Source of the DNA: Craspedostauros australis
Lineage: Eukaryota
Direction of reading: 5' to 3'
DNA length: 64,000 bases
Assembly (NCBI GenBank): GCA_030167865.1
Contig: JALAGF010005488.1
Coordinates: 1-64,000 of the forward strand
Part shown: piece by piece, positions 45,281 through 57,285 of the stretch
How positions within the stretch are numbered: position 1 is the stretch's first letter
Layout of the letters: each line of letters starts with the position of its first letter
Notes under the pieces: generated by a model
What the model saw: only the letters and a program-made list of their open reading frames with translations
What the model was told of the DNA's origin: nothing
Database searches by the model: none
Position numbers and translations under genes: made by a program

Positions 45281-46888
45281 ATGGGTATCATGGAACGAAT
45301 CAAGGAGATCGAGGCCGAGATGGCCCGGACTCAAAAGAACAAGGCGACGAACTATCACTTGGGAACGCTGAAGGCCAAGCTGGCCAGACTCCGAAATGAT
45401 CTGTTCGTGGAGCAATCCGGCGGAGGCGGAGGTGGCGGCGAAGGCTTCGAGGTTGCACGCAACGGTGATGCGCGCGTGGCGTTGATCGGCTTTCCTTCCG
45501 TCGGCAAATCGTCGCTGCTGGGTGCCCTCACAACGACCGAATCCGAGGCCGCGGCCTACGAATTCACCACGTTGACATGCATCCCCGGCGTCCTGCGGTA
45601 CAAAGGATCTAAGATCCAGGTGCTGGATCTTCCAGGGATCATCGAAGGTGCCGCGCACGGTGCCGGCCGTGGAAAGGAAGTCATCGCTGTGGCGCGTGGT
45701 GCCGATGCCATCCTCATCGTGCTGGATGCCGGAAAGGAGGGCCTGAATCGACATCGCGAGATTCTGGAGAAGGAGCTTGAGACAGTCGGCATTCGTCTGA
45801 ACCAGCGCCCGCCGGATGTGACGATGACGAAGAAAAAGTCGGGCGGCGGGGTTCGATTTGCCTCCACCGTGCCACAGACCAAGCTGGGCCCGGATCCGGA
45901 GAAGGTGGTCACGCAGATCATGAGGGAGTACAAGATCTCCAGCGCTGACATCCTGGCGCGCGAAGAAATCACGGTCGATCAGTTGGTGGATGTCATCCAG
46001 GGCAACCGTGAATACAAGCCGTGCCTGTACCTGTACAACAAGATCGACACGATCACCATCGAGGAGGTCGATCAGCTGGCGCGTCAACCGCACTCCGTCG
46101 TTGGCAGCGTCCGCGCCAACTTCAACATCGGCCAACCTGAGGAGGACGATCTGCTCAAGTCCAAAATGTGGGAGTATCTGGGACTGACACGAATCTACAC
46201 AAAGCGAAAAGGTACGAGTGTGTCTGATGCGGTTCAGCTCGCTTTGTCCCAGTTCAGGCCATCAACAATCGTTGATGTCGTCAACGCCACATGATGGGAT
46301 GGGCTGTAATGTAATGGGATGGGATGGGATGTGACACGTATGATCATGAATGTCGACAGGTACTCGTGTTTTGCATGTGGTGTGGACATCGGAAGTGGAC
46401 GCGTCCAATGCAATGCTCTGCCCTGGATGCAATCCTATCTTACATCTTCTTCTTCCTATTCTCGTTGTTTTCGCCGACCATGCCTGTCGCAACTGCTGCC
46501 TGCGTGATTCAACCATCGTGATTATCGCCCATTCTTCTATGTGTATTTTGATTGTACAGGATCGCCACCGGATCTTGAGGAGCCTGTCGTGCTGTCGGAG
46601 ATCCGAAAAGGAACCGACATCAAGGCACTGTGCGCCAACGTGTCGTCCGAACTGCTCCGTGACTTCAACTACGCGCTTGTGTGGGGCACAAGCGCCAAGC
46701 ATGCCCCACAGCGTTGCGGCCTGAGCCACAAGCTCGATGATGAGGACGTGGTGCAGATTGTCAGCAAGACCATCAAGCAGCAGCAACAGGATAAGAACTA
46801 CGGCCAGCTGGCACAGATCCATCACGACAAGATCGCCAAAAAGCGTTTGGACGCCAAGAAGCACAAGCAGAAGCAGCTGCGTGGTTAA
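45281..46888 (+). CDS. DRG2: Developmentally regulated GTP-binding protein 2 (OBG family, TGS domain); exons 45281-46211, 46560-46888
   Basis: MGIMERIKEIEAEMARTQKNKAT, GFPSVGKS, YEFTTLT, DLPG, NKID; TGS segment VWGTSAKH...DEDVVQI; intron 46212-46559. Confidence 0.95.
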
Positions 46889-47158
46889 TGATGCTCTACT
46901 CGAAGAGTATGAGCGCGAGTACGACAGGAGCAGTCAACTTTACTCACTCAATACCCTAACGGCGAGGCGCAGTGTTTTTTCTAATATTTCTGAATGAGTT
47001 TGCTGCACACGGTACTGGATCGTACTGTTATTGAAAGAACGTCAATAGACACAGTGCGAAAGGGCTGTCCCAGCCATGCCAATACATGCAACAGAGGGCG
47101 TTATCCTGCACCTGCACGTATCAAGACGCAGTCTATGCATGTGAGCAGGGCGTGTCGT

Positions 47159-50100
47159 CTACTCTTCCTCATCCATGTCCGTCGCAGCTGCCTGGGCCGA
47201 TCCACCGTGCGTCGACTCCAGCTCCATGATGATGATGTCTTCTGCTGACAGCACGAGATGGTCCTTGTTGTGCGGGAGCTGTCGTTGGAACTCTGAAAGC
47301 CCCATCCAAAACAGTCTCTGCTTGTGCAGTTGCACGATCAGATCGTTGCCGGCCTGGATGCGCTGGGGGTACTTGCGAAAGTCCTGGGCCGTGTTTAATG
47401 CCGCTGTGACGCCCAGAATGATGGGGACGACCCATTGCATCGATAGAGCTGCGGCCGCTCCACTCAGCATGGTGATGAACTTGATGGAGCTAGAGACAAT
47501 GGCGTTCCGTTTGGACATGAGCTGGATGGATGTGGTCTTGGCTGCGGTGGCACGTTTCACGCGCGCCCTCAAGTAATCGTTGACCTTGAGAGGTGAGTAG
47601 TGATCATCGAGGAAAGGTCCAGTGAGCGCCTTGGCGCCTTCGTCTCCATCCTCGTCATCATCGTCTTCGTCGTCATCATCAATTTCTGGGTCATCGTCAA
47701 CACCCCCACTGCCGCGTCCAACGAAGAGCCCGCCCTGTTGATTCTCGACGTCCTCGTCGCTTTCGAATCCCAGCAAGTCCTCAATACCTCCGCCGATATC
47801 CTTCATCATATCGACTGGCTTGTTCAGCATTCCTGTGACAGCGGAGGCTCTGCTCTTTAGTGCGTTGCTTGTGCGGGACGCCAGTCCACCCGCCATGAGT
47901 GGCGTGATTTCTGATACCGCAGCTTCCGCGTTGTTTGCTTCGTCAGGCAATGCAGTCCCAGCCTGCTCGGCCGAACCCAGCAAATCAGCGGGGGATTGAG
48001 CAGCGGATGCCCTTGCCTCTGTTTTGGCCTTGGACGCGACATCTGCGGCCCTCGAGACGATGGTGGCTTCCCTCTCCTCCAGCTCCCTCATTTTCGTGCC
48101 CAGCTTGTCTGTTGTGGCCGGGGCTGTCTCATCATCGATGATCTCATCTGCCGCCTTCTCGATGTTCAAATGCAACATCTCCATGCCATCGTCCTCGAGA
48201 TACGGCTGGACAGCTTTCCAGATGGTTTGGATCTTCTTCGTGAAGAGCTGGATGCAGCGCTGAATGGTCGCGTCGCGCTTGTCTGGGCGTCGGTACTTGC
48301 CAACCTGGCAACGGAACAGGAAGATCTCCGATTCCAAGTGGCTTTTCGCAATCGTGAGAGCCTGCCACTGGCGCATCGACGTGCCCTTGTCGGATTCCTG
48401 CTTGACGGATGTCACGTACAGCGGCAAAAGGATCGTCGCCATGTACCCGGCGGTTTGCGTGTGTTGTTTCATTTGCTCAGACCCATCAGTAGCCGCTTGG
48501 TTGTCGCCTCCAACGACGTACTGATTGTAGAGGACGCTGGCAATGATGCTGGCCAGGGTGAAGATGATGAGCTGGAGATGCAGGTCCTCCGTAGATCCCT
48601 TCTTTTTGTGTGTGTACTGTTCCATGATGTGATGGAAGGACCAGGCGTAATCGAGGGCCTTCTGCTGCAGGGCCTGGATGTCTGGATTCTTCGCGTGCTT
48701 CAATCCGAAACAACGCACGAGCGCTTGAATCAGACGTTCTTGGACCTGCCCTGGCGTGGTGTTCGGCTTGAGTGGATCCACCACGATGGCGCTGTCCGGC
48801 GCAAACTCCAATGGGAATGTTCGGAGGAAAGAATCCATGAGTTGGTAATCCTCGCCCCCACCTGGTGGAACTTCTTCCAGGTCGTCAGCAGAAGCTAAAG
48901 CGGACTCTGTAAGCAAGGTCGTCGATATGGGAGGGATCGTCCGCAATGGGTTGGACTTCTTCTTTGGCGCGCCTGAGGTGCCAGCTTTGGATTTGGTCTT
49001 GCCACTGGATGCCTTGGACGAAGAAGTCGATGCAGACGCAGATGCATTGCGAATGTGGCGCTTCACATGCCGGATCATCTGCGCCAGCTGGTTCACACGA
49101 TGGGTTGTGTACCGGATGCCCACTTTTGCCTTCGCCTTCGTCGGCTTCCTGTTCTTGGCTGTCGTCTGTCCCGAGGCTGTTTTGGGATCTTGCGAGTCAA
49201 GGCCATCGCTGCCCATTGTCACCTCGGGCTCTGTTGCTGCGATTGGTTTCTTGGCCTTCGCCGTGGCGAGTTTTTGGGACGAATCCTTGAGCAGGAGCAA
49301 CGGAGATCCGTTGCGGATGGTGCGCAGCACTGTGTCTCTGCCTCGGAGGGTGAGACGGCTGCCGAAGGCTACCATGTAATCAGGCACCACCTCCATCAGA
49401 GCTTCGCGGAACAGGTTGAGATCGTGATGATTCGCGAAGAAGAGGATATGGGTGAGCTGAGAGCAGGGCGCGTCGTCCATCTTGTCCTCGTCCGCGCTGG
49501 GCTCGTCGCTCTCTTGATCCAGGCGGCACACACGCTGGATGGGCGAACCCACGGGGACCATGATCTCCTCGATCTGATCCTTGATCATTTGCTGGTCCTC
49601 CTGCGCCTCGTTGTCCATCAACGTGAGCAATCCCAAGGCCACAACCTCGGGCGGCTTGCTCACTCCCGAAGCGGCGTTGGTCGCTGTGGACACCTTGGAG
49701 GCCGGGCAGATGGACAGCACCTGATGCGCCACCGGATTCCATCGACGTGGGGATTCCGGGACAATCCACGCATTGACCGTCTTCGCAGAATCGACCACGA
49801 CGGTCTCCAGGATGTGCCCGATCTTGGTTTTCAAGACTGCCTCGTTGGCTTTGATATCGGCGCTGATGGCAGGATCCATGCCCACATCAACCGCGGGGAT
49901 GCCACCTTCGAGTCTTGACTCGGGCGTCGTGATGATCATATTGGGCAATGCCGGCAACCCGATGGCATTCAAGACGTTCGAAACGAAGGGCTTGCATGCC
50001 GATCCTGTGCCTCCCGCAGCGCCAGTGTTGGCATCGGCGCTATTGCGTTGGATGTATCCAACTGGGACGTAAACGAAGGGACGGTCCAGTTTGGGAGGAA

Positions 50101-50272
50101 TGCTGGCAGCGGACGGTGTGGATTCCGCGCCCTCTTCCGGTTCCGTCGCAGATTCCAATTGTGTGCCGGCAGGATTGGCCACAGACTCGTAGCGAATCAC
50201 GCCATGCTGCAGCGGCGTCAATCGATCCGCCTCGTGCGCGATGTCAGTCACCTGAGACTGCGCTGCCGTCAT
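47159..50272 (-). CDS. Intronless SLOG (TRPM/LSDAT-like) plus double SLATT-like two-TM protein, 1037 aa
   Basis: N-terminal motifs LPNMIIT, SAKTVNAWIV, VVALGL, THILFF, PLLLLKDS are collinear with the TRPM SLOG domain. Two 2-TM modules: ...WQAL...LESEIFLFRCQVGKY and YSPL...YLRARV...QWVVPIILGVTAAL...LVLSAEDII. Confidence 0.7.
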   Translation of the reverse strand: MTAAQSQVTDIAHEADRLTPLQHGVIRYESVANPAGTQLESATEPEEGAESTPSAASIPPKLDRPFVYVPVGYIQRNSADANTGAAGGTGSACKPFVSNVLNAIGLPALPNMIITTPESRLEGGIPAVDVGMDPAISADIKANEAVLKTKIGHILETVVVDSAKTVNAWIVPESPRRWNPVAHQVLSICPASKVSTATNAASGVSKPPEVVALGLLTLMDNEAQEDQQMIKDQIEEIMVPVGSPIQRVCRLDQESDEPSADEDKMDDAPCSQLTHILFFANHHDLNLFREALMEVVPDYMVAFGSRLTLRGRDTVLRTIRNGSPLLLLKDSSQKLATAKAKKPIAATEPEVTMGSDGLDSQDPKTASGQTTAKNRKPTKAKAKVGIRYTTHRVNQLAQMIRHVKRHIRNASASASTSSSKASSGKTKSKAGTSGAPKKKSNPLRTIPPISTTLLTESALASADDLEEVPPGGGEDYQLMDSFLRTFPLEFAPDSAIVVDPLKPNTTPGQVQERLIQALVRCFGLKHAKNPDIQALQQKALDYAWSFHHIMEQYTHKKKGSTEDLHLQLIIFTLASIIASVLYNQYVVGGDNQAATDGSEQMKQHTQTAGYMATILLPLYVTSVKQESDKGTSMRQWQALTIAKSHLESEIFLFRCQVGKYRRPDKRDATIQRCIQLFTKKIQTIWKAVQPYLEDDGMEMLHLNIEKAADEIIDDETAPATTDKLGTKMRELEEREATIVSRAADVASKAKTEARASAAQSPADLLGSAEQAGTALPDEANNAEAAVSEITPLMAGGLASRTSNALKSRASAVTGMLNKPVDMMKDIGGGIEDLLGFESDEDVENQQGGLFVGRGSGGVDDDPEIDDDDEDDDDEDGDEGAKALTGPFLDDHYSPLKVNDYLRARVKRATAAKTTSIQLMSKRNAIVSSSIKFITMLSGAAAALSMQWVVPIILGVTAALNTAQDFRKYPQRIQAGNDLIVQLHKQRLFWMGLSEFQRQLPHNKDHLVLSAEDIIIMELESTHGGSAQAAATDMDEEE

Positions 50273-52905: not shown

Positions 52906-55900
52906 TCACCTCCGCGGACTCTCCTCCGACCGCTTGAGCTGGCGGACGACCTCCTTCCCCTTCTGCAACCACTCTGCGCGATTGTTCAAGGCATACCGAA
53001 GAAGTTCTTTGCCTGATGCTCCGAATGCTGGGCATTGATTTAATCGATGGGCCAAAGGAATGATGTAAAAGTCAAAGAATGCAATCTCTCCCGTGTACCA
53101 GTTGTCAGCAGGGTTTTGTGTCGATCTTCCTTGGTTGTAAGCGTCGTGCGTTTCCTTGAAGAAGCATGAGTTCCACCGGCGGTACACATTCCAGTGCTGC
53201 ATTGTGTGAGCAACGTCAGAAACCTGGATGATGTGCTCGAGGACAGCCGTCTTTTGATGGTTGGACAGGTCTTGGTGCGACATGCTGGCAAGGCTGCTGC
53301 TGGTGCTGCTGTCGTCTTCTGATCCCGTCCCGAACAAGGTGCCCCAGCGCTTCTTGCGAGCCGTCTGCAAGTCTCTGTCGACGATGTCGGTGACGAGGAG
53401 TGCATGGATGAGGAGTTGCTTGAATCGGTCGAATTCCTCCTTGGTGGTGTAGATGGTCCGACGGAGGTCCTTGAAGGAGTCCCTCATCAGGAGCTTCCAC
53501 GCAATATCCAGAGAGTTGCGTTCGGCGAAGCTCGTCTTGTACATAGAGGCCAAACTGCTTCCTTCGGTCTGGAGTTGTTGATTGGAAACGCCCGGGTGGT
53601 CGATGTCATGCACCAGCGCGGTCAGCACCAAAGTGAACTGTGTCAACGGGTCGTCCAGCGACACCTCGGTATGGGTCATATGGCTGAGGAGCTTGGTCAC
53701 TGACATGAGCACATGGCTCGCATGCTCGAAGTTGTGAAATGGGTGAGCGCGGTAGCATGACGCCACCTCGCGAACGTACATGTTGAGCTGTCTGGCCACC
53801 TCGTCATCAAGGACAACGTGATTGGCGTCAACTGTTCCTTCGATGACGGGAAAGTCGATGCAGTGCGATGGCGTGGCATGGCCAAGCACAGCTTCGCGTT
53901 CCAGCGTGTCCAGCTCCGCAGGATCGGCCTTTTTTACATCCTTCAGATGCGAGTTCAGCTCCCTCCAAGCGATGGTCTTGCGTAGGAACATCCCCAGCGT
54001 TTCCGAATGCCACTTGATGAGGCTGGCTCGTTTGTAGGAATCGAAGAAATCCTCCGTGTCTTGGACGGCATCGTCGTTCAGGTAGTGGCTCGAGCTGTTT
54101 TCGGGGCCCTCGGACAAGGTGCTGTGCGTTCCGTCACCTTGGATTTGGAGCCAGTACGTCTGCAGTTCCCCGAGGCCCTTGGCTACGATTCGGTCATCAC
54201 GCTTCTTCACCCAAAAGCGCTTGCCCCGCGCAATCAGAATGTCAGCGGTATCCTTCGAGATGTGGATTCTGCCTCTCTGGCCAGTGCTCTCGATGCGAGA
54301 TGCCGTGTTCATCGTGTCGCCGAAGAGCTGGAAACGCGCTCGCTGACCACGAAGGACACCTGCGGTGACGGGGCCGCTGTGGAGTCCGAAACGCATGGCC
54401 AGGTTGCTGGTGTCAGGACCTAGCTCGAGCTCGAGCTCTTTGACCAGGTTTCCCATTTCGATGAGACAATCCCTGGAAAATCTAGCCATGGCGATGGCAT
54501 GGTCCTTGCGAGGCTCAGGGAGACCACAAACAGCGACGTAGCAGTCACCGACGGTCTCGACCTTGAAGACGGAATGGTGATCTGCGATTTGATCGAAAGC
54601 GTTGAAGATGGTCTCCAGCAGCAAGAACACCTACGCAATCAATTTTGTCGAAGTTGATTGATGAGTTTGATATCGGGAGGAGCAACAAAGTGGTATAACA
54701 TGATATTGTGCATGGAACGTCGATGGAAAAAGGCTTCTTGTGAGACTCATGATGTAACCCGATGCAGCCTTTGCTTTTGGTTTTGGCAAGAGCGGCAACA
54801 CCAATGGCAACACCAACGGCAACACCAACGGTTGAAGCCACAACAGGACGGCGCCGTGACAACTGCCCATGCCATTGTCGCTGGCAGCTGTAACCTCGTT
54901 ACACGGAATACCACAAGAAAACTACACACATGATTGCGATGCGGCTTACCTGCGTCGGTTCTCTCATCGAACTCCAAGCGGTGAAGCCAACGATGTCCGC
55001 AAACATTATCGTAGTGTCGCTGAAGAGGTCGGCAATGGGTTTTGTCCTCACCGGGGCTGGGCCTCCTGTGACGCCGTAGTCCCCAATGGCTTGCATGGTG
55101 ATGTGATCCCTGTGATCTGTCTCCTCCATGATTTGCTCCGCGACGTTCTTTGGGAAGAGAGATGAGACGACTGCTGTCGAGCGTTCTGCGGTGCGCACGA
55201 CCTTCTTGTTGCGGTGTTGAACCAGCACGTCGTAAATAAAGAAAACCATCGCAGTGAAGACGAAGATGGACACCACGATGATGGTGTAGTTCTTGGAATG
55301 GTCTGTGGTCCAAAAGTCAACGAAGTTGTCAGTCATGTGTGTTGAGACGTAATAAGCGCACGGAGACTCGTCTTGACTGTCATCACTTGTGCTCGTGGGC
55401 GTGCCATCGCCGTCCTGTTCGTTCAGGCGACGGTCATCGCTGCTGTCGGCAGTGTCTGGATCGTGCGGGAATATCTTGACGGTCTGAGCGGTGCTGTCGT
55501 ATTTGGAATTGTGCTTGAAGTTGATGCCGATGAAGTCGGTTGTACCGCGGCTTGTGGTCCGGAATGAGTACCTTGTGCTCTCCTCTTCCTGATTTTTACA
55601 CCGGTGTTCGACATCAATGACCATACCAACTGCCTCGCCCTCTAGGATTCCATTCAAGATGTCTGCCCATGCGATTGCTGCGACGGCGACACCGATGATG
55701 GGTGCGTCGGGTGCAAAAGAGTCGAAGATTGGTTCCAAGAGGATGCTGATGGGTTGTCCAGTGGCGATCTCAGCAACGCGGTCCAGCTGGCGGGAGCTTG
55801 ACCCGTCTCCGGGCTCGCCGTATCGGGTGATGATTTCGGCGTCCAAGACGGAAGTGAACGCAGCCGCGCGCCTCGCCACAACGTCGTTCCATGCCGAACG

Positions 55901-57285
55901 GAACCAAGTTGCGGTGAGATAGTCCACCATGATGGTCGACTCAGCAGGGTTGGGTGGAACGGGGTGGACCTGCCAAGCTGGCAAATGGTAGCCAAGAGAT
56001 GGCAAGGGTCCCGCTGGATCTTGATAGTCGACCACGTTTGGGCGGATGGAGCTGGGGGTGCTCTCGTCGATGATCGTCTCTTCGGAATCATGATCATGAT
56101 GCACAATATGCTGTGCTCTGTCTTCGGTGATCCAGCCCTGATGCTCCACCGCGTAGGCTTCCCATGCCGCGAGATCCGCTTCGCCAACAACTGGGAGGAC
56201 GGAGATTGCTTGGGCTTGCCCGAGCTCGGCGAAGTTCCTTGCCCGGACTCCGTAGTTGGGAAGTGTCATGTTTGGATGCGATACGAGTGATGCTCCTTGG
56301 GGTCCTTGGAGATCAGAGCGCGCTTCCATGTCCTCGTGGTGGTTGGGATGGACGACCATCGATGTCCAGGCATCTGTGAGGCCGCGAACGGACTGATCGG
56401 CCTTCAAGAGGCTGTTCTGGGTCGATTCGAACACTTCCTCCGCAAATTCTTCGAACTGGTTGTTGGTTCGAGCGATGACAAACAAAGAGGGACAGAATAG
56501 GACAGGAGCAACCGGAGGGTTGGAAGATGTGCAACGAGGAGCATGACGAAGCGAAGGTAGCCGGGCATAGGCAGTTCGGTAGCGCAGCATATCGGCCGGA
56601 AGAATTTGACAGCCGAAGGATGGTGAGGGTGAGGTTTTGAATTCGAACAGCATGAACAAGTTGTTGATGGTCCGCTGTCGCTGCTGCTGTCGCTGCTGCT
56701 AAGGAGAGATTGATGCTCCTCTTGGCTGTCATTCGGCAGGTAGACCATAGTAGCAACATAGTGTGGTTGGGCATGGCACAGGCAAGCACGCAAGCACCAC
56801 TGGTACCGTGAGCCGTGTCAGGTCGCAACACTGATGCTTACCTCGTCTTCGTACCATACCACGTCTTCTTTTTCCATGAACAAATAGGTTCCAACACCAG
56901 ACGCAGCCGCTGCTATGAAAAGCACGAGGTACATCGCCAGCTTGGAGCGGTTGACGAGCTTTGTTTCCGTCTTGACGAAAGACTCGACTGGTTGCGAGTT
57001 GCTGGGTTTCTCGCCTGGCAATATTGGGAGCTCCGCGTCGTAGCTCATCTCGTCAGGTTGGGAGTATCGCGCGCCGTTGCTCTCCAGCCATTCCTTCATG
57101 GAGGCAGCCGCTGTGGCATTTGCAACGGCGTGCTCAGCAGCGAGCTCAGCTCCCATGGTGCCGCTGCTGTTGCTGCTTCCAACAGGAAGGGTGGCGGATT
57201 GGGGTTTCTCCACCATCTGTCTGCTGGAGTCCGATTCTCCACCCTCCATGGTTGTTGGTTGGTCGTTTGATTGATGTGTACTCAT
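52906..57285 (-). CDS. Membrane-anchored class III nucleotide cyclase (probably guanylate) fused to a class I phosphodiesterase; exons 57285-56842, 56455-54950, 54630-52906
   Basis: Two TM helices flank an extracellular region; cyclase motifs MFADIVGFT, KVETVGDCY, LFGDTMNTASRIES; PDE motifs FHNFEHASH, HDIDHPG, SDVAH; introns 56456-56841 and 54631-54949. Confidence 0.92.

What the first reader, a model, noticed from the sequence alone, without database searches (positions are those of the whole stretch)
47159..50272. TRPM-type SLOG domain fused to two SLATT-like membrane modules in a diatom: candidate nucleotide-sensing immune or cell-death effector
Seen in sequence: an intronless 1037-aa ORF. 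Its N-terminal region (about 50080-49280) carries, in order, FVYVPV / LNAIGLPALPNMIIT / SAKTVNAWIV / VVALGL / THILFF / FREAL / TVLRTIRNGSPLLLLKDS. Two 2-TM units follow (about 48600-48290 and 47600-47220), separated by an acidic linker. Established: this motif order matches the SLOG domain at the N-terminus of TRPM channels, and prokaryotic LSDAT-clade SLOG domains are fused to SLATT 2-TM domains, which are predicted pore-forming effectors in nucleotide-signalling conflict systems. Inference: a prokaryote-like SLOG-SLATT-SLATT sensor-pore with no 6-TM TRP channel, possibly acquired horizontally. I know of no characterised function for such a protein in diatoms.
Basis: partly seen in the sequence, partly recalled or inferred. 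Interest (0 to 1): 0.85.

Follow-up and report, generated by a model that had tools for sequence, protein, structure and literature searches.

The report
TRPM-type sensor on SLATT membrane modules
This diatom-type gene joins the nucleotide-sensor fold of animal TRPM ion channels to two bacterial-style two-helix membrane modules, a design shared by many marine protists whose function has not been tested in any paper I could find.

Summary
The domain reading holds.

- **N-terminal domain (aa ~14-528):** the AlphaFold model (pTM 0.80) matches TRPM MHR1/2 domains far above everything else. Z is 19.8 against TRPM, 8.7 or lower against other SLOG families, and about 5 against generic Rossmann folds.
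- **Membrane units:** homologues show the first 2-TM unit is DUF4231 and the second is SLATT_1.
- **Curated models:** the window protein passes no curated Pfam threshold. Membership rests on fold and on homology through intermediate sequences.
- **Family:** the same order (SLOG, unit 1, unit 2) occurs in 63 of 157 proteins examined. Named members include a diatom and dinoflagellates. A cyanobacterial protein carries the two membrane units alone.
- **Not supported:** I found no evidence of recent horizontal transfer. An immune or cell-death role is untested.
- **Ligand site:** the glycine loops that contact ADP-ribose in TRPM2 are replaced in this clade, partly by other conserved motifs. The ligand is therefore open.

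My best guess is a ligand-gated membrane-permeability device, at confidence 0.5. It is a new member of a computationally described kind. The scan's earlier notes hold only prokaryotic stand-alone TRPM-type SLOG proteins, not this family.

The parts
47159..50272 (-). Whole ORF, 1037 codons plus stop (protein P0001)
   Evidence: full-length homologues
48689..50233 (-). Cytosolic TRPM-type SLOG (LSDAT-like, MHR1/2-like) domain, aa ~14-528, including low-complexity insertions
   Evidence: AlphaFold model pTM 0.80. Foldseek: 132 PDB hits at E<=1e-3, and all listed rows (ranks 1-49) are TRPM. VIA Z 19.8. Family profile against TRPM5 gives E 1e-11.
49913..49942 (-). Loop after the first core strand, aa 111-120 NMIITTPESR. 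It sits at the position of TRPM2 'ISVTGGAKNF', and the glycine pair is absent.
   Evidence: GG kept in 3 of 44 aligned rows
49736..49759 (-). Loop PESPRRWN, aa 172-179, after the 'NAWIV' strand. It sits at the position of the TRPM2 loop that holds M215. The clade consensus is P-D-C-P-R-R-R-N.
   Evidence: role of M215 from passages of 10.64898/2026.03.30.715250
49112..49285 (-). 58-residue K/A/T-rich insertion, aa 330-387. It lies inside the SLOG domain, is absent from all aligned homologues, and has low model confidence.
   Evidence: No GT..AG pair would remove it in frame. No RNA cover.
49091..49111 (-). Degenerate glycine motif YTTHRVN, aa 388-394. It sits at the position of [ST]GG.AD in relatives and of GSGR(358)VAD in human TRPM2.
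48173..48685 (-). First membrane unit, DUF4231-like, aa ~530-700. A long helix at aa 530-587 runs from the SLOG domain into TM1.
   Evidence: DUF4231 hits at this position in 5 of 8 close family members and in homologues above the gathering score; model
48527..48577 (-). TM1, aa ~566-582
48404..48454 (-). TM2, aa ~607-623, with Pro617 present in 51 of 51 aligned sequences
47621..48172 (-). Acidic, mostly disordered linker, aa ~701-884. Its length varies among homologues.
   Evidence: pLDDT below 50 for aa ~810-868
47198..47620 (-). Second membrane unit, SLATT_1-like, aa ~885-1025
   Evidence: phmmer E 2.9e-7 to P0085, which matches SLATT_1 at 59.9 bits over 1-122 of 122 profile positions. SLATT_1 hits at this position in homologues.
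47444..47500 (-). TM3, aa ~925-943
47387..47437 (-). TM4, aa ~946-962, with Pro950 present in 49 of 51 aligned sequences

Best explanation
Shown: the gene encodes a four-helix membrane protein of a large protist family. Its N-terminal half, which has no signal peptide and is most likely cytosolic, has the fold of the TRPM channel MHR1/2 domain, the LSDAT branch of SLOG domains. Its C-terminal half is a DUF4231-type 2-TM hairpin, an acidic disordered linker, and a SLATT_1-type 2-TM hairpin. Inferred: the protein is a single-chain sensor-plus-pore. A small ligand binds the SLOG cleft; it is most likely phosphorylated and may be an NAD-derived nucleotide. The resulting movement passes through the long helix that runs from the SLOG domain straight into TM1. 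The four-helix SLATT module, alone or after self-assembly, then raises membrane permeability to ions. This is the logic of TRPM2, with a SLATT module in place of the TRP pore. The ligand is probably not bound as ADP-ribose is bound in TRPM2, because the glycine loops of that site are replaced. Whether the output is physiological signalling or cell death is open.
For: Fold: the model has pTM 0.80, with 338 of 535 residues at pLDDT>=70. VIA gives Z 19.8, rmsd 4.0, 297 residues aligned to TRPM7 residues 87-416, and all 50 listed entries are TRPM. In the Foldseek-independent search of 48,161 chains, TRPMs take ranks 1-8 and 10 (Z 19.8-10.8). Other SLOG families follow: LOG 8.7, DprA 7.4, ThsA 7.4, YpsA 7.0. 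Generic Rossmann folds score about 5.

Sequence: the 45-sequence family profile hits 48 PDB sequences at E<=1, of which 47 are TRPM, with TRPM5 at E 1e-11 across the whole SLOG region. Iterative HMM searches link the window's N-terminus to homologues that carry Pfam LSDAT hits. P0058 scores 51.7/50.1 bits and P0100 26.1 bits.

Membrane units: among P0009-P0094, 27 of 86 match DUF4231 (6 at or above the gathering score) and 35 of 86 match SLATT_1 (11 at or above it). Among P0095-P0157 the figures are 15 of 63 (10) and 33 of 63 (19). The two families always match at unit 1 and unit 2 respectively.

Architecture: the order SLOG, unit 1, unit 2 is found in 63 of 157 proteins and is never permuted.

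Coupling: a continuous helix at aa 530-587 joins the SLOG domain to TM1, and pTM is 0.69 for the C-terminal half.

Conserved features: Pro617 51/51, Pro950 49/51, Trp989 47/48, Glu1011 50/50.

Analogy, from passages I read: ADP-ribose binds the TRPM2 MHR1/2 cleft (PMC6759353). A SLOG domain binds 3'cADPR in type I Thoeris, and SLATT effectors are thought to form membrane-breaching assemblies in CBASS and in type VII Thoeris (10.64898/2025.12.03.692087).

The site looks remodelled, not decayed. The close family conserves T-x-E-T, P-D-C-P-R-R-R-N and H-T-G-x-x-[IV]-D at the three loop positions.
Against: The window protein itself gives no Pfam, NCBIfam or PDB sequence match, and the 8-sequence close-family profile gives none in the PDB. 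The profile built without Pfam-LSDAT-positive members reaches TRPM only at E 0.29, although all 19 hits at E<=10 are TRPM. The [ST]GG motif, whose second position is R358 in human TRPM2, is YTTH in the window and is kept in only 10 of 44 aligned rows. The first GG loop is kept in only 3 of 44. A 58-residue insertion sits just before that motif. No enzyme that produces a nucleotide signal is linked to the gene, and gene neighbourhood carries little meaning in a eukaryote. Pore formation by SLATT domains is a prediction in the literature I could read, and no solved structure resembles the C-terminal half. Units 1 and 2 are not detectably related to each other at profile level (hhalign probability 5%).
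Confidence: 0.5

Rival explanations
1. The SLOG head no longer binds a nucleotide. It serves as an assembly or regulatory scaffold that responds to protein partners, Ca2+, phosphorylation of the long linker, or lipids. The protein is then a constitutive or otherwise gated organellar or plasma-membrane channel or membrane organiser.
For: Both glycine loops are lost in the window and in most of the family. Among the TRPM structure titles listed, ADP-ribose appears only with TRPM2, so the fold is no proof of ADPR binding. The linker is long, acidic and disordered. The close family shares 37-43% identity with the window protein.
Against: Replacement motifs at all three cleft loops are conserved inside the diatom clade, including an Arg-rich PRRRN loop. 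That pattern argues for a maintained ligand site.
Confidence: 0.25
2. It is a dedicated immune or programmed-cell-death effector. Virus infection or stress raises an NAD-derived signal, the SLOG head senses it, and the SLATT module kills the cell by depolarisation.
For: By the passages read, bacterial SLATT and SLOG proteins work in CBASS and Thoeris and in other conflict systems (PMC7159879). A SLATT-domain gene of Gephyrocapsa huxleyi changes expression in opposite directions during virus infection with and without a quorum signal (10.64898/2026.09.30.755861). Its relation to this family was not tested.
Against: 20 of 22 family members match no PADLOC model; P0117 hits RTasSLATT at E 8.7e-4 and P0058 hits Csm3 at E 0.0044, the latter probably noise. 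The window holds one copy and no paralogue. The neighbours are housekeeping genes. No close relative was found in viral contigs.
Confidence: 0.17
3. The SLOG domain is an enzyme, a LOG-like nucleotide N-glycosidase or phosphoribohydrolase anchored in a membrane, and not a sensor.
For: LOG-family enzymes are the next-best structural matches after TRPM (Z 8.0-8.7).
Against: The Z gap to TRPM is more than 10 units. The glycine-rich loops typical of LOG enzymes are absent (the LOG motif itself is recalled, not tested here).
Confidence: 0.03
4. It is a recent bacterial acquisition or an assembly contaminant.
For: The two-unit membrane module alone occurs in a cyanobacterial MAG protein, P0114, with DUF4231 at 41.5 bits and SLATT_1 at 76.4 bits. 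The ORF has no intron.
Against: GC of 0.56-0.59 is close to the flanks at 0.52-0.57. The gene lies between a DRG GTPase and an OGG1-type glycosylase among other eukaryotic genes. Its nearest relatives form a clade that includes a diatom protein. None of the 27 pattern matches in prokaryotic genomes was confirmed.
Confidence: 0.02

Closest known systems
TRPM channel MHR1/2 domain (Pfam LSDAT_euk), for example TRPM2, TRPM7, TRPM5
   Same: Same fold over about 300 residues (Z 17-20). The family profile aligns with TRPM5 over the whole SLOG region. Both place the domain at the N-terminus of a membrane protein.
   Different: There is no 6-TM TRP pore, no MHR3/4 and no NUDT9-H domain. The glycine loops around the TRPM2 ADP-ribose site are replaced. 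The window protein does not reach the Pfam score.
Prokaryotic LSDAT (Pfam LSDAT_prok) proteins fused to SLATT domains, as described computationally by Burroughs et al. 2015, NAR
   Same: A sensor head of the TRPM-type SLOG branch joined to SLATT membrane hairpins in one chain.
   Different: This is a eukaryotic family with a TRPM-sized head and long disordered insertions. The paper is not held here, so the comparison is recalled. I could not check whether it already lists eukaryotic SLOG-SLATT proteins.
Bacterial tandem DUF4231 + SLATT_1 proteins, for example cyanobacterial MAG protein P0114 (394 aa)
   Same: Same two membrane units in the same order. P0114 is hit by the window protein at E 7.9e-6 in two stretches.
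   Different: No SLOG head, and a much shorter linker.
ThsA (SIR2-SLOG) of type I Thoeris
   Same: A SLOG sensor that binds an NAD-derived signal and switches on a fused effector (passages). SeThsA and the BcThsA SLOG domain appear among the fold matches (Z 7.4 and 6.8).
   Different: A different SLOG branch with much lower Z. Its effector is an NADase, not a membrane module.
SLATT effectors of CBASS and type VII Thoeris (ThsH)
   Same: 2-TM SLATT effectors proposed to breach membranes on nucleotide signal (passages).
   Different: In those systems the signal is produced by a partner enzyme encoded next to the effector gene. No PADLOC effector model matches 20 of 22 family members.

Membership tests
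SLOG superfamily, TRPM-type (LSDAT) branch | SLOG Rossmann-like fold that is closest to TRPM MHR1/2 among all solved structures | tested here: met
   Z is 19.8 to a TRPM2 domain and to TRPM7. TRPMs fill ranks 1-8 and 10 of 48,161 chains, and other SLOG families score Z<=8.7. All 50 listed entries are TRPM, as are all listed Foldseek rows.
SLOG superfamily, TRPM-type (LSDAT) branch | Significant sequence-profile relationship to TRPM N-termini or LSDAT members | tested here: met
   The family profile A2, which includes the window, gives TRPM5 at E 1e-11, and 47 of 48 hits are TRPM. An iterative HMM links the window to LSDAT-positive homologues. Caveat: the profile without those members reaches only E 0.29.
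SLOG superfamily, TRPM-type (LSDAT) branch | Pfam LSDAT_euk or LSDAT_prok match at the curated gathering score | tested here: not met
   No LSDAT hit for the window or for any of the 8 close family members. The score is met only by distant homologues P0058 and P0100. This is an operational criterion. The protein is a divergent relative that the curated models miss.
SLOG superfamily, TRPM-type (LSDAT) branch | Glycine-rich loops at the cleft: ...TGGA... after the first core strand, and G[ST]G[GR].AD before the last core helix. These are typical features, not strictly defining. | tested here: not met
   The window has TTPE and YTTHRVN at these positions. [ST]GG is kept in 10 of 44 aligned rows and the first GG in 3 of 44.
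DUF4231 (PF14015; placed in the SLATT clan by recall) | Significant homology of unit 1 to proteins that pass the Pfam gathering score, with a 2-TM hairpin | tested here: met
   Homologues that match at unit 1 pass the score: P0009 24.8, P0054 35.7, P0058 30.0, P0114 41.5 bits. 5 of 8 close members give sub-threshold, near-full-length hits. The two helices are seen. In P0123 a SLATT_3 hit overlaps its DUF4231 hit.
DUF4231 (PF14015) | Direct Pfam match of the window protein at the gathering score | tested here: not met
   No hit at E<=10.
SLATT_1 (PF18181) | Significant homology of unit 2 to bona fide SLATT_1 proteins, with a 2-TM hairpin | tested here: met
   Window aa 888-1027 hits P0085 at E 2.9e-7 in a library of 1.84 billion proteins. 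P0085 matches SLATT_1 at 59.9 bits over 1-122 of 122 positions. In all, 30 homologues reach the gathering score or more.
SLATT_1 (PF18181) | Direct Pfam match of the window protein at the gathering score | tested here: not met
   No hit for the window. One of 8 close members hits at 16.3 bits, below the cut-off of 26.3.
TRPM ion channels | Six-helix TRP pore domain C-terminal to the MHR region | tested here: not met
   Only four hydrophobic helices, no ion-channel Pfam hit, and the C-terminal model is two helical hairpins.
Known anti-phage defence effectors (PADLOC-DB 2.0) | Match to a defence-system protein model | tested here: not met
   The window gives only KwaA at E 0.024. 20 of 22 homologues give nothing; P0117 hits RTasSLATT at E 8.7e-4 and P0058 hits Csm3 at E 0.0044.
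SLATT pore-forming effectors (function) | Ligand-triggered membrane permeabilisation | not testable with these tools
   Needs electrophysiology or leakage assays.

The most novel reading that the evidence does not exclude
Diatoms and dinoflagellates carry a second, TRP-independent lineage of 'melastatin-type' channels. In these a TRPM-like SLOG head gates a four-helix SLATT pore in one polypeptide. This would be the surviving eukaryotic form of the design from which TRPM arose by swapping the pore. With its remodelled, Arg-rich ligand pocket it would sense a metabolite not yet known as a signal in phytoplankton, and would control ion fluxes or cell death during stress or infection.
Probability: 0.15. 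Interest if true: 0.85.

Novelty: new member of a known kind. Interest (0 to 1): 0.5.

Why it matters
A TRPM-type sensor head attached to a SLATT membrane module in a single eukaryotic chain is a compact test system for two long-standing predictions. One is that SLATT domains form regulated pores. The other is that TRPM-type SLOG domains are general small-molecule gates. It also bears on where the melastatin region of animal TRPM channels came from. The family is widespread in ecologically dominant phytoplankton, yet no paper I could search describes a function for it. The curated LSDAT models miss the diatom branch entirely, so automatic annotation sees at most the SLATT part.

Tried and rejected
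- Single-sequence scans of the window protein: Pfam gave only GIT1_C at E 0.12 and PAP1 at E 0.15. NCBIfam gave nothing. PADLOC gave KwaA at E 0.024, treated as noise. PDB phmmer gave LAS1L at E 7.1.
- The close-family profile A1 against the PDB gave 0 hits.
- C-terminal half against solved structures: Foldseek found 0 hits at E<=1e-3. The VIA wide search gave a best Z of 9.7 to a designed three-helix bundle, with pannexins at 8.2-8.3. This is within the background for helical models, so no solved relative was identified.
- hhalign of unit 1 against unit 2 gave probability 5%, so no internal duplication was detected.
It is evidence neither way.
The scan with A1 gave 27 pattern matches, none confirmed. 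That method finds close relatives only.
- Viral contigs with A1: 20 pattern matches, none confirmed.
- RNA evidence: no RNA holder was listed. One run, RNA only by a guess, covers 46700-47777 with identical contigs. Nothing can be said about expression or about the 58-residue insertion.
- Intron test of the insertion at aa 330-387: no in-frame GT..AG pair.
- No whole genome is held, so paralogue number is unknown. Within the window only the gene itself is found.
- FastTree of unit 2, 129 sequences, midpoint root, supports not read: usable only to say that the window sits beside P0002 in the clade that holds the diatom protein. The cyanobacterial protein sits on a long branch among eukaryote-like sequences, so no direction of transfer can be read.
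- ESM Atlas on aa 1-535: the three best clusters are LSDAT families, but at scores of 0.75-0.77, which makes them a lead only.
- Burroughs et al. 2015 and Burroughs & Aravind 2020 are not held.
- Earlier notes of this scan hold nothing on this family.


Full report
**Observation.** One search lists a single ATG-to-stop ORF of 1037 codons at 47159..50272 on the minus strand. ORFs in other frames over the same DNA are 283 aa or shorter. Hydropathy and the AlphaFold model of the C-terminal half give two pairs of membrane-length helices, at about aa 566-582 and 607-623, and aa 925-943 and 946-962. A D/E-rich, mostly disordered stretch of about 185 residues lies between the pairs. GC across the gene (0.56-0.59) is close to that of the flanks (0.52-0.57).

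**It is a gene with a family.** The word-index search found 7 proteins at E 2e-144 to 8e-106. They align with the window protein from residue 1 to the end at 37-43% identity. The exhaustive phmmer search of 1.84 billion representatives found 205 proteins at E<=1e-3, 54 at E<=1e-10 and 21 at E<=1e-30. Most hits cover the two membrane units as two separate stretches. The window protein is about 200-280 residues longer than its closest relatives because of low-complexity insertions. One is a 58-residue K/A/T-rich insertion at aa 330-387, inside the N-terminal domain. I found no GT..AG pair that would remove it in frame, and no RNA data cover it.

**Membrane units.** The window protein gives no Pfam, NCBIfam, PADLOC or PDB sequence match of any weight. 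Its relatives do.
- Among the 8 close family members, 5 give near-full-length but sub-threshold DUF4231 hits at unit 1. One gives a SLATT_1 hit at unit 2.
- Among P0009-P0094 (86 proteins, E<=0.01), 27 match DUF4231, 6 of them at or above the gathering score. 35 match SLATT_1, 11 at or above it.
- Among P0095-P0157 (63 proteins, E<=0.001) the figures are 15 (10) and 33 (19).
- DUF4231 always matches unit 1 and SLATT_1 always matches unit 2.
- The window's unit 2 directly hits P0085 at E 2.9e-7, and P0085 matches SLATT_1 at 59.9 bits over the whole model.

The two units are not detectably related to each other (hhalign probability 5%). That DUF4231 belongs to the SLATT clan is recalled. The one supporting observation here is a SLATT_3 hit that overlaps the DUF4231 hit in P0123. 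No solved structure resembles this half.

**N-terminal domain.** An alignment of 45 family members with window aa 1-535 as first row gave a model with pTM 0.80, a beta/alpha core at aa 63-330 and further helices to aa 526.
- Foldseek found 132 PDB chains at E<=1e-3. Every listed row (ranks 1-49) is a TRPM channel or TRPM domain.
- VIA-align on Foldseek's list gave Z 19.8, rmsd 4.0 and 297 aligned residues against TRPM7 residues 87-416. All 50 listed entries are TRPM.
- The Foldseek-independent search of 48,161 representative chains gave a clean hierarchy. TRPMs took ranks 1-8 and 10 (Z 19.8-10.8). A ciliary central-pair protein took rank 9 (Z 13.1). Other SLOG families followed: LOG 8.7 and 8.0, 3bq9 and YgdH 8.5, MCP 7.9, DprA 7.4, ThsA 7.4 and 6.8, YpsA 7.0. 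Generic Rossmann folds scored near 5.
- By sequence, the 45-member profile hits 48 PDB sequences at E<=1. Of these 47 are TRPM, and TRPM5 scores E 1e-11 over profile positions 33-295.
- That profile contains distant members that themselves carry Pfam LSDAT hits: P0058 at 51.7/50.1 bits, P0100 at 26.1, and weaker hits in six others.
- A profile without those members still finds only TRPM (19 of 19 hits at E<=10), but at a best E of 0.29, which is not significant.
- Iterative HMM searches within the 157 proteins tie the window's N-terminus to the LSDAT-positive members within one or two rounds.

I conclude that the domain is a divergent member of the TRPM-type SLOG branch which the curated Pfam models miss.

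**The ligand site.** I read passages of two papers: PMC6759353 and preprint 10.64898/2026.03.30.715250. They place ADP-ribose in the human TRPM2 MHR1/2 cleft. Y295 and the beta5-alpha3 loop clamp it. Its phosphates contact R358 and the N-terminus of helix alpha7. M215 and R302 also contribute. The alignment of P0058 with human TRPM2 shows three correspondences:
- R358 occupies the second glycine position of the family's [ST]GG.AD motif.
- M215 lies in the loop after the 'GAWI' strand.
- 'ISVTGGAKNF' is the loop after the first core strand.

In the window these three loops read YTTHRVN (aa 388-394), PESPRRWN (aa 172-179) and TTPES (within aa 111-120). Across the 44 aligned rows, [ST]GG is kept in 10, its first glycine in 31, and the first GG pair in 3. 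Within the diatom-type clade the replacements are themselves conserved: T-x-E-T, P-D-C-P-R-R-R-N and H-T-G-x-x-[IV]-D. This looks like a remodelled pocket, not a decayed one. What it binds cannot be read from sequence.

**Architecture and distribution.** Using HMMs for the three parts, 63 of the 157 proteins carry SLOG, unit 1 and unit 2, always in that order. Another 45 carry the two membrane units without the head, and some of these are fragments.

Names printed by the tools:
- A Pseudictyota dubia (diatom) protein sits in the cluster of close homologue P0009. [quoted passage not shown]
- Distant members come from dinoflagellates: Polykrikos kofoidii, Gymnodinium smaydae and Polarella glacialis.
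- A cyanobacterial MAG encodes the two-unit module alone (P0114).

The window's neighbours are ordinary eukaryotic genes: DRG GTPase, OGG1-type glycosylase, mitochondrial carrier, DIRP, PWWP and PPR. A scan of one genome from each of 185,579 prokaryotic species (GTDB release) and a scan of viral contigs confirmed no close relative. Nothing points to a recent transfer. An ancient prokaryotic origin of the module remains likely but was not tested.

**Mechanism.** Shown: the fold of the head, the family assignment of the two hairpins, their fixed order, a continuous predicted helix (aa 530-587) from the head into TM1, and prolines kept in all or nearly all aligned sequences within TM2 and TM4. 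Inferred: ligand binding in the cleft moves that helix and opens or assembles the SLATT module. This parallels TRPM2 gating, the SLOG-switched effector of type I Thoeris, and the SLATT effectors of CBASS and type VII Thoeris (passages). I put this at 0.5. The main rival, at 0.25, is that the head is no longer a nucleotide sensor. 20 of 22 family members match no PADLOC model, and the only algal hint I found concerns a SLATT gene of a haptophyte whose relation to this family I did not test.

**Novelty.** The combination of a TRPM-type SLOG head with SLATT hairpins was, as I recall, described computationally by Burroughs et al. 2015. I could not read that paper. I only saw it cited in passages of PMC13143021, PMC7306681, PMC9503650 and PMC7159879. 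In the searchable library:
- No paper holds both 'SLATT' and 'LSDAT'.
- 12 papers hold 'SLATT', 'SLOG' and 'eukaryotes'. I read passages of 5 of the 11 listed, and none treats such a eukaryotic protein.
- 'SLATT' with 'diatoms' returns only 4 geology papers.

This is therefore a new, divergent member of a known and experimentally untouched kind. Supplements of the 2015 paper, which I could not see, may already list eukaryotic examples.

Noticed in passing
window 52909-54489 (-), possibly continuing into the ORF at 54902-56653 (-): An ORF two genes upstream on the same strand fuses an adenylate/guanylate cyclase catalytic domain (76.6 bits, profile positions 97-182 only) to a 3'5'-cyclic nucleotide phosphodiesterase (95.5 bits). 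The cyclase match is truncated at its start, so the gene probably continues upstream across an intron. Adjacency to the SLOG-SLATT gene means little in a eukaryote.
   Followed up: no
PDB 9nw3 chain 6A (fold search with the N-terminal model): A 256-residue protein of the ciliary tip central pair matches the model at Z 13.1 with 236 residues aligned. That places it between the TRPMs and all other SLOG families, so a stand-alone TRPM-type SLOG protein appears to be a structural part of cilia.
   Followed up: no
homologues P0149 (1434 aa) and P0179 (1505 aa, Polarella glacialis): The same DUF4231 + SLATT_1 module carries other heads. P0149 has ubiquitin and Tudor_5 hits. The Polarella cluster member is named 'protein kinase domain-containing' by UniRef. 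The four-helix module therefore seems to be a shared output for several sensor types in protists.
   Followed up: no
homologue P0002: The closest homologue carries the source name 'uncharacterized Tic20 family protein'. No Tic20 match appeared in the Pfam scan of P0002, so the name looks like an annotation artefact.
   Followed up: partly
window 49112-49285 (-), aa 330-387: A 58-residue K/A/T-rich insertion unique to the window protein sits directly before the degenerate glycine motif of the SLOG domain. No canonical in-frame splice pair was found, and there are no RNA data.
   Followed up: partly
window 46700-47777: Contigs of one public run (RNA only by a guess) match the 3' end of the ORF and about 460 bases downstream of its stop codon within the laid stretch, with no differences. 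The longest contig (1169 bases) ends at 47599 and begins about 270 bases beyond the laid stretch. Nothing from the run lies on the rest of the gene.
   Followed up: partly
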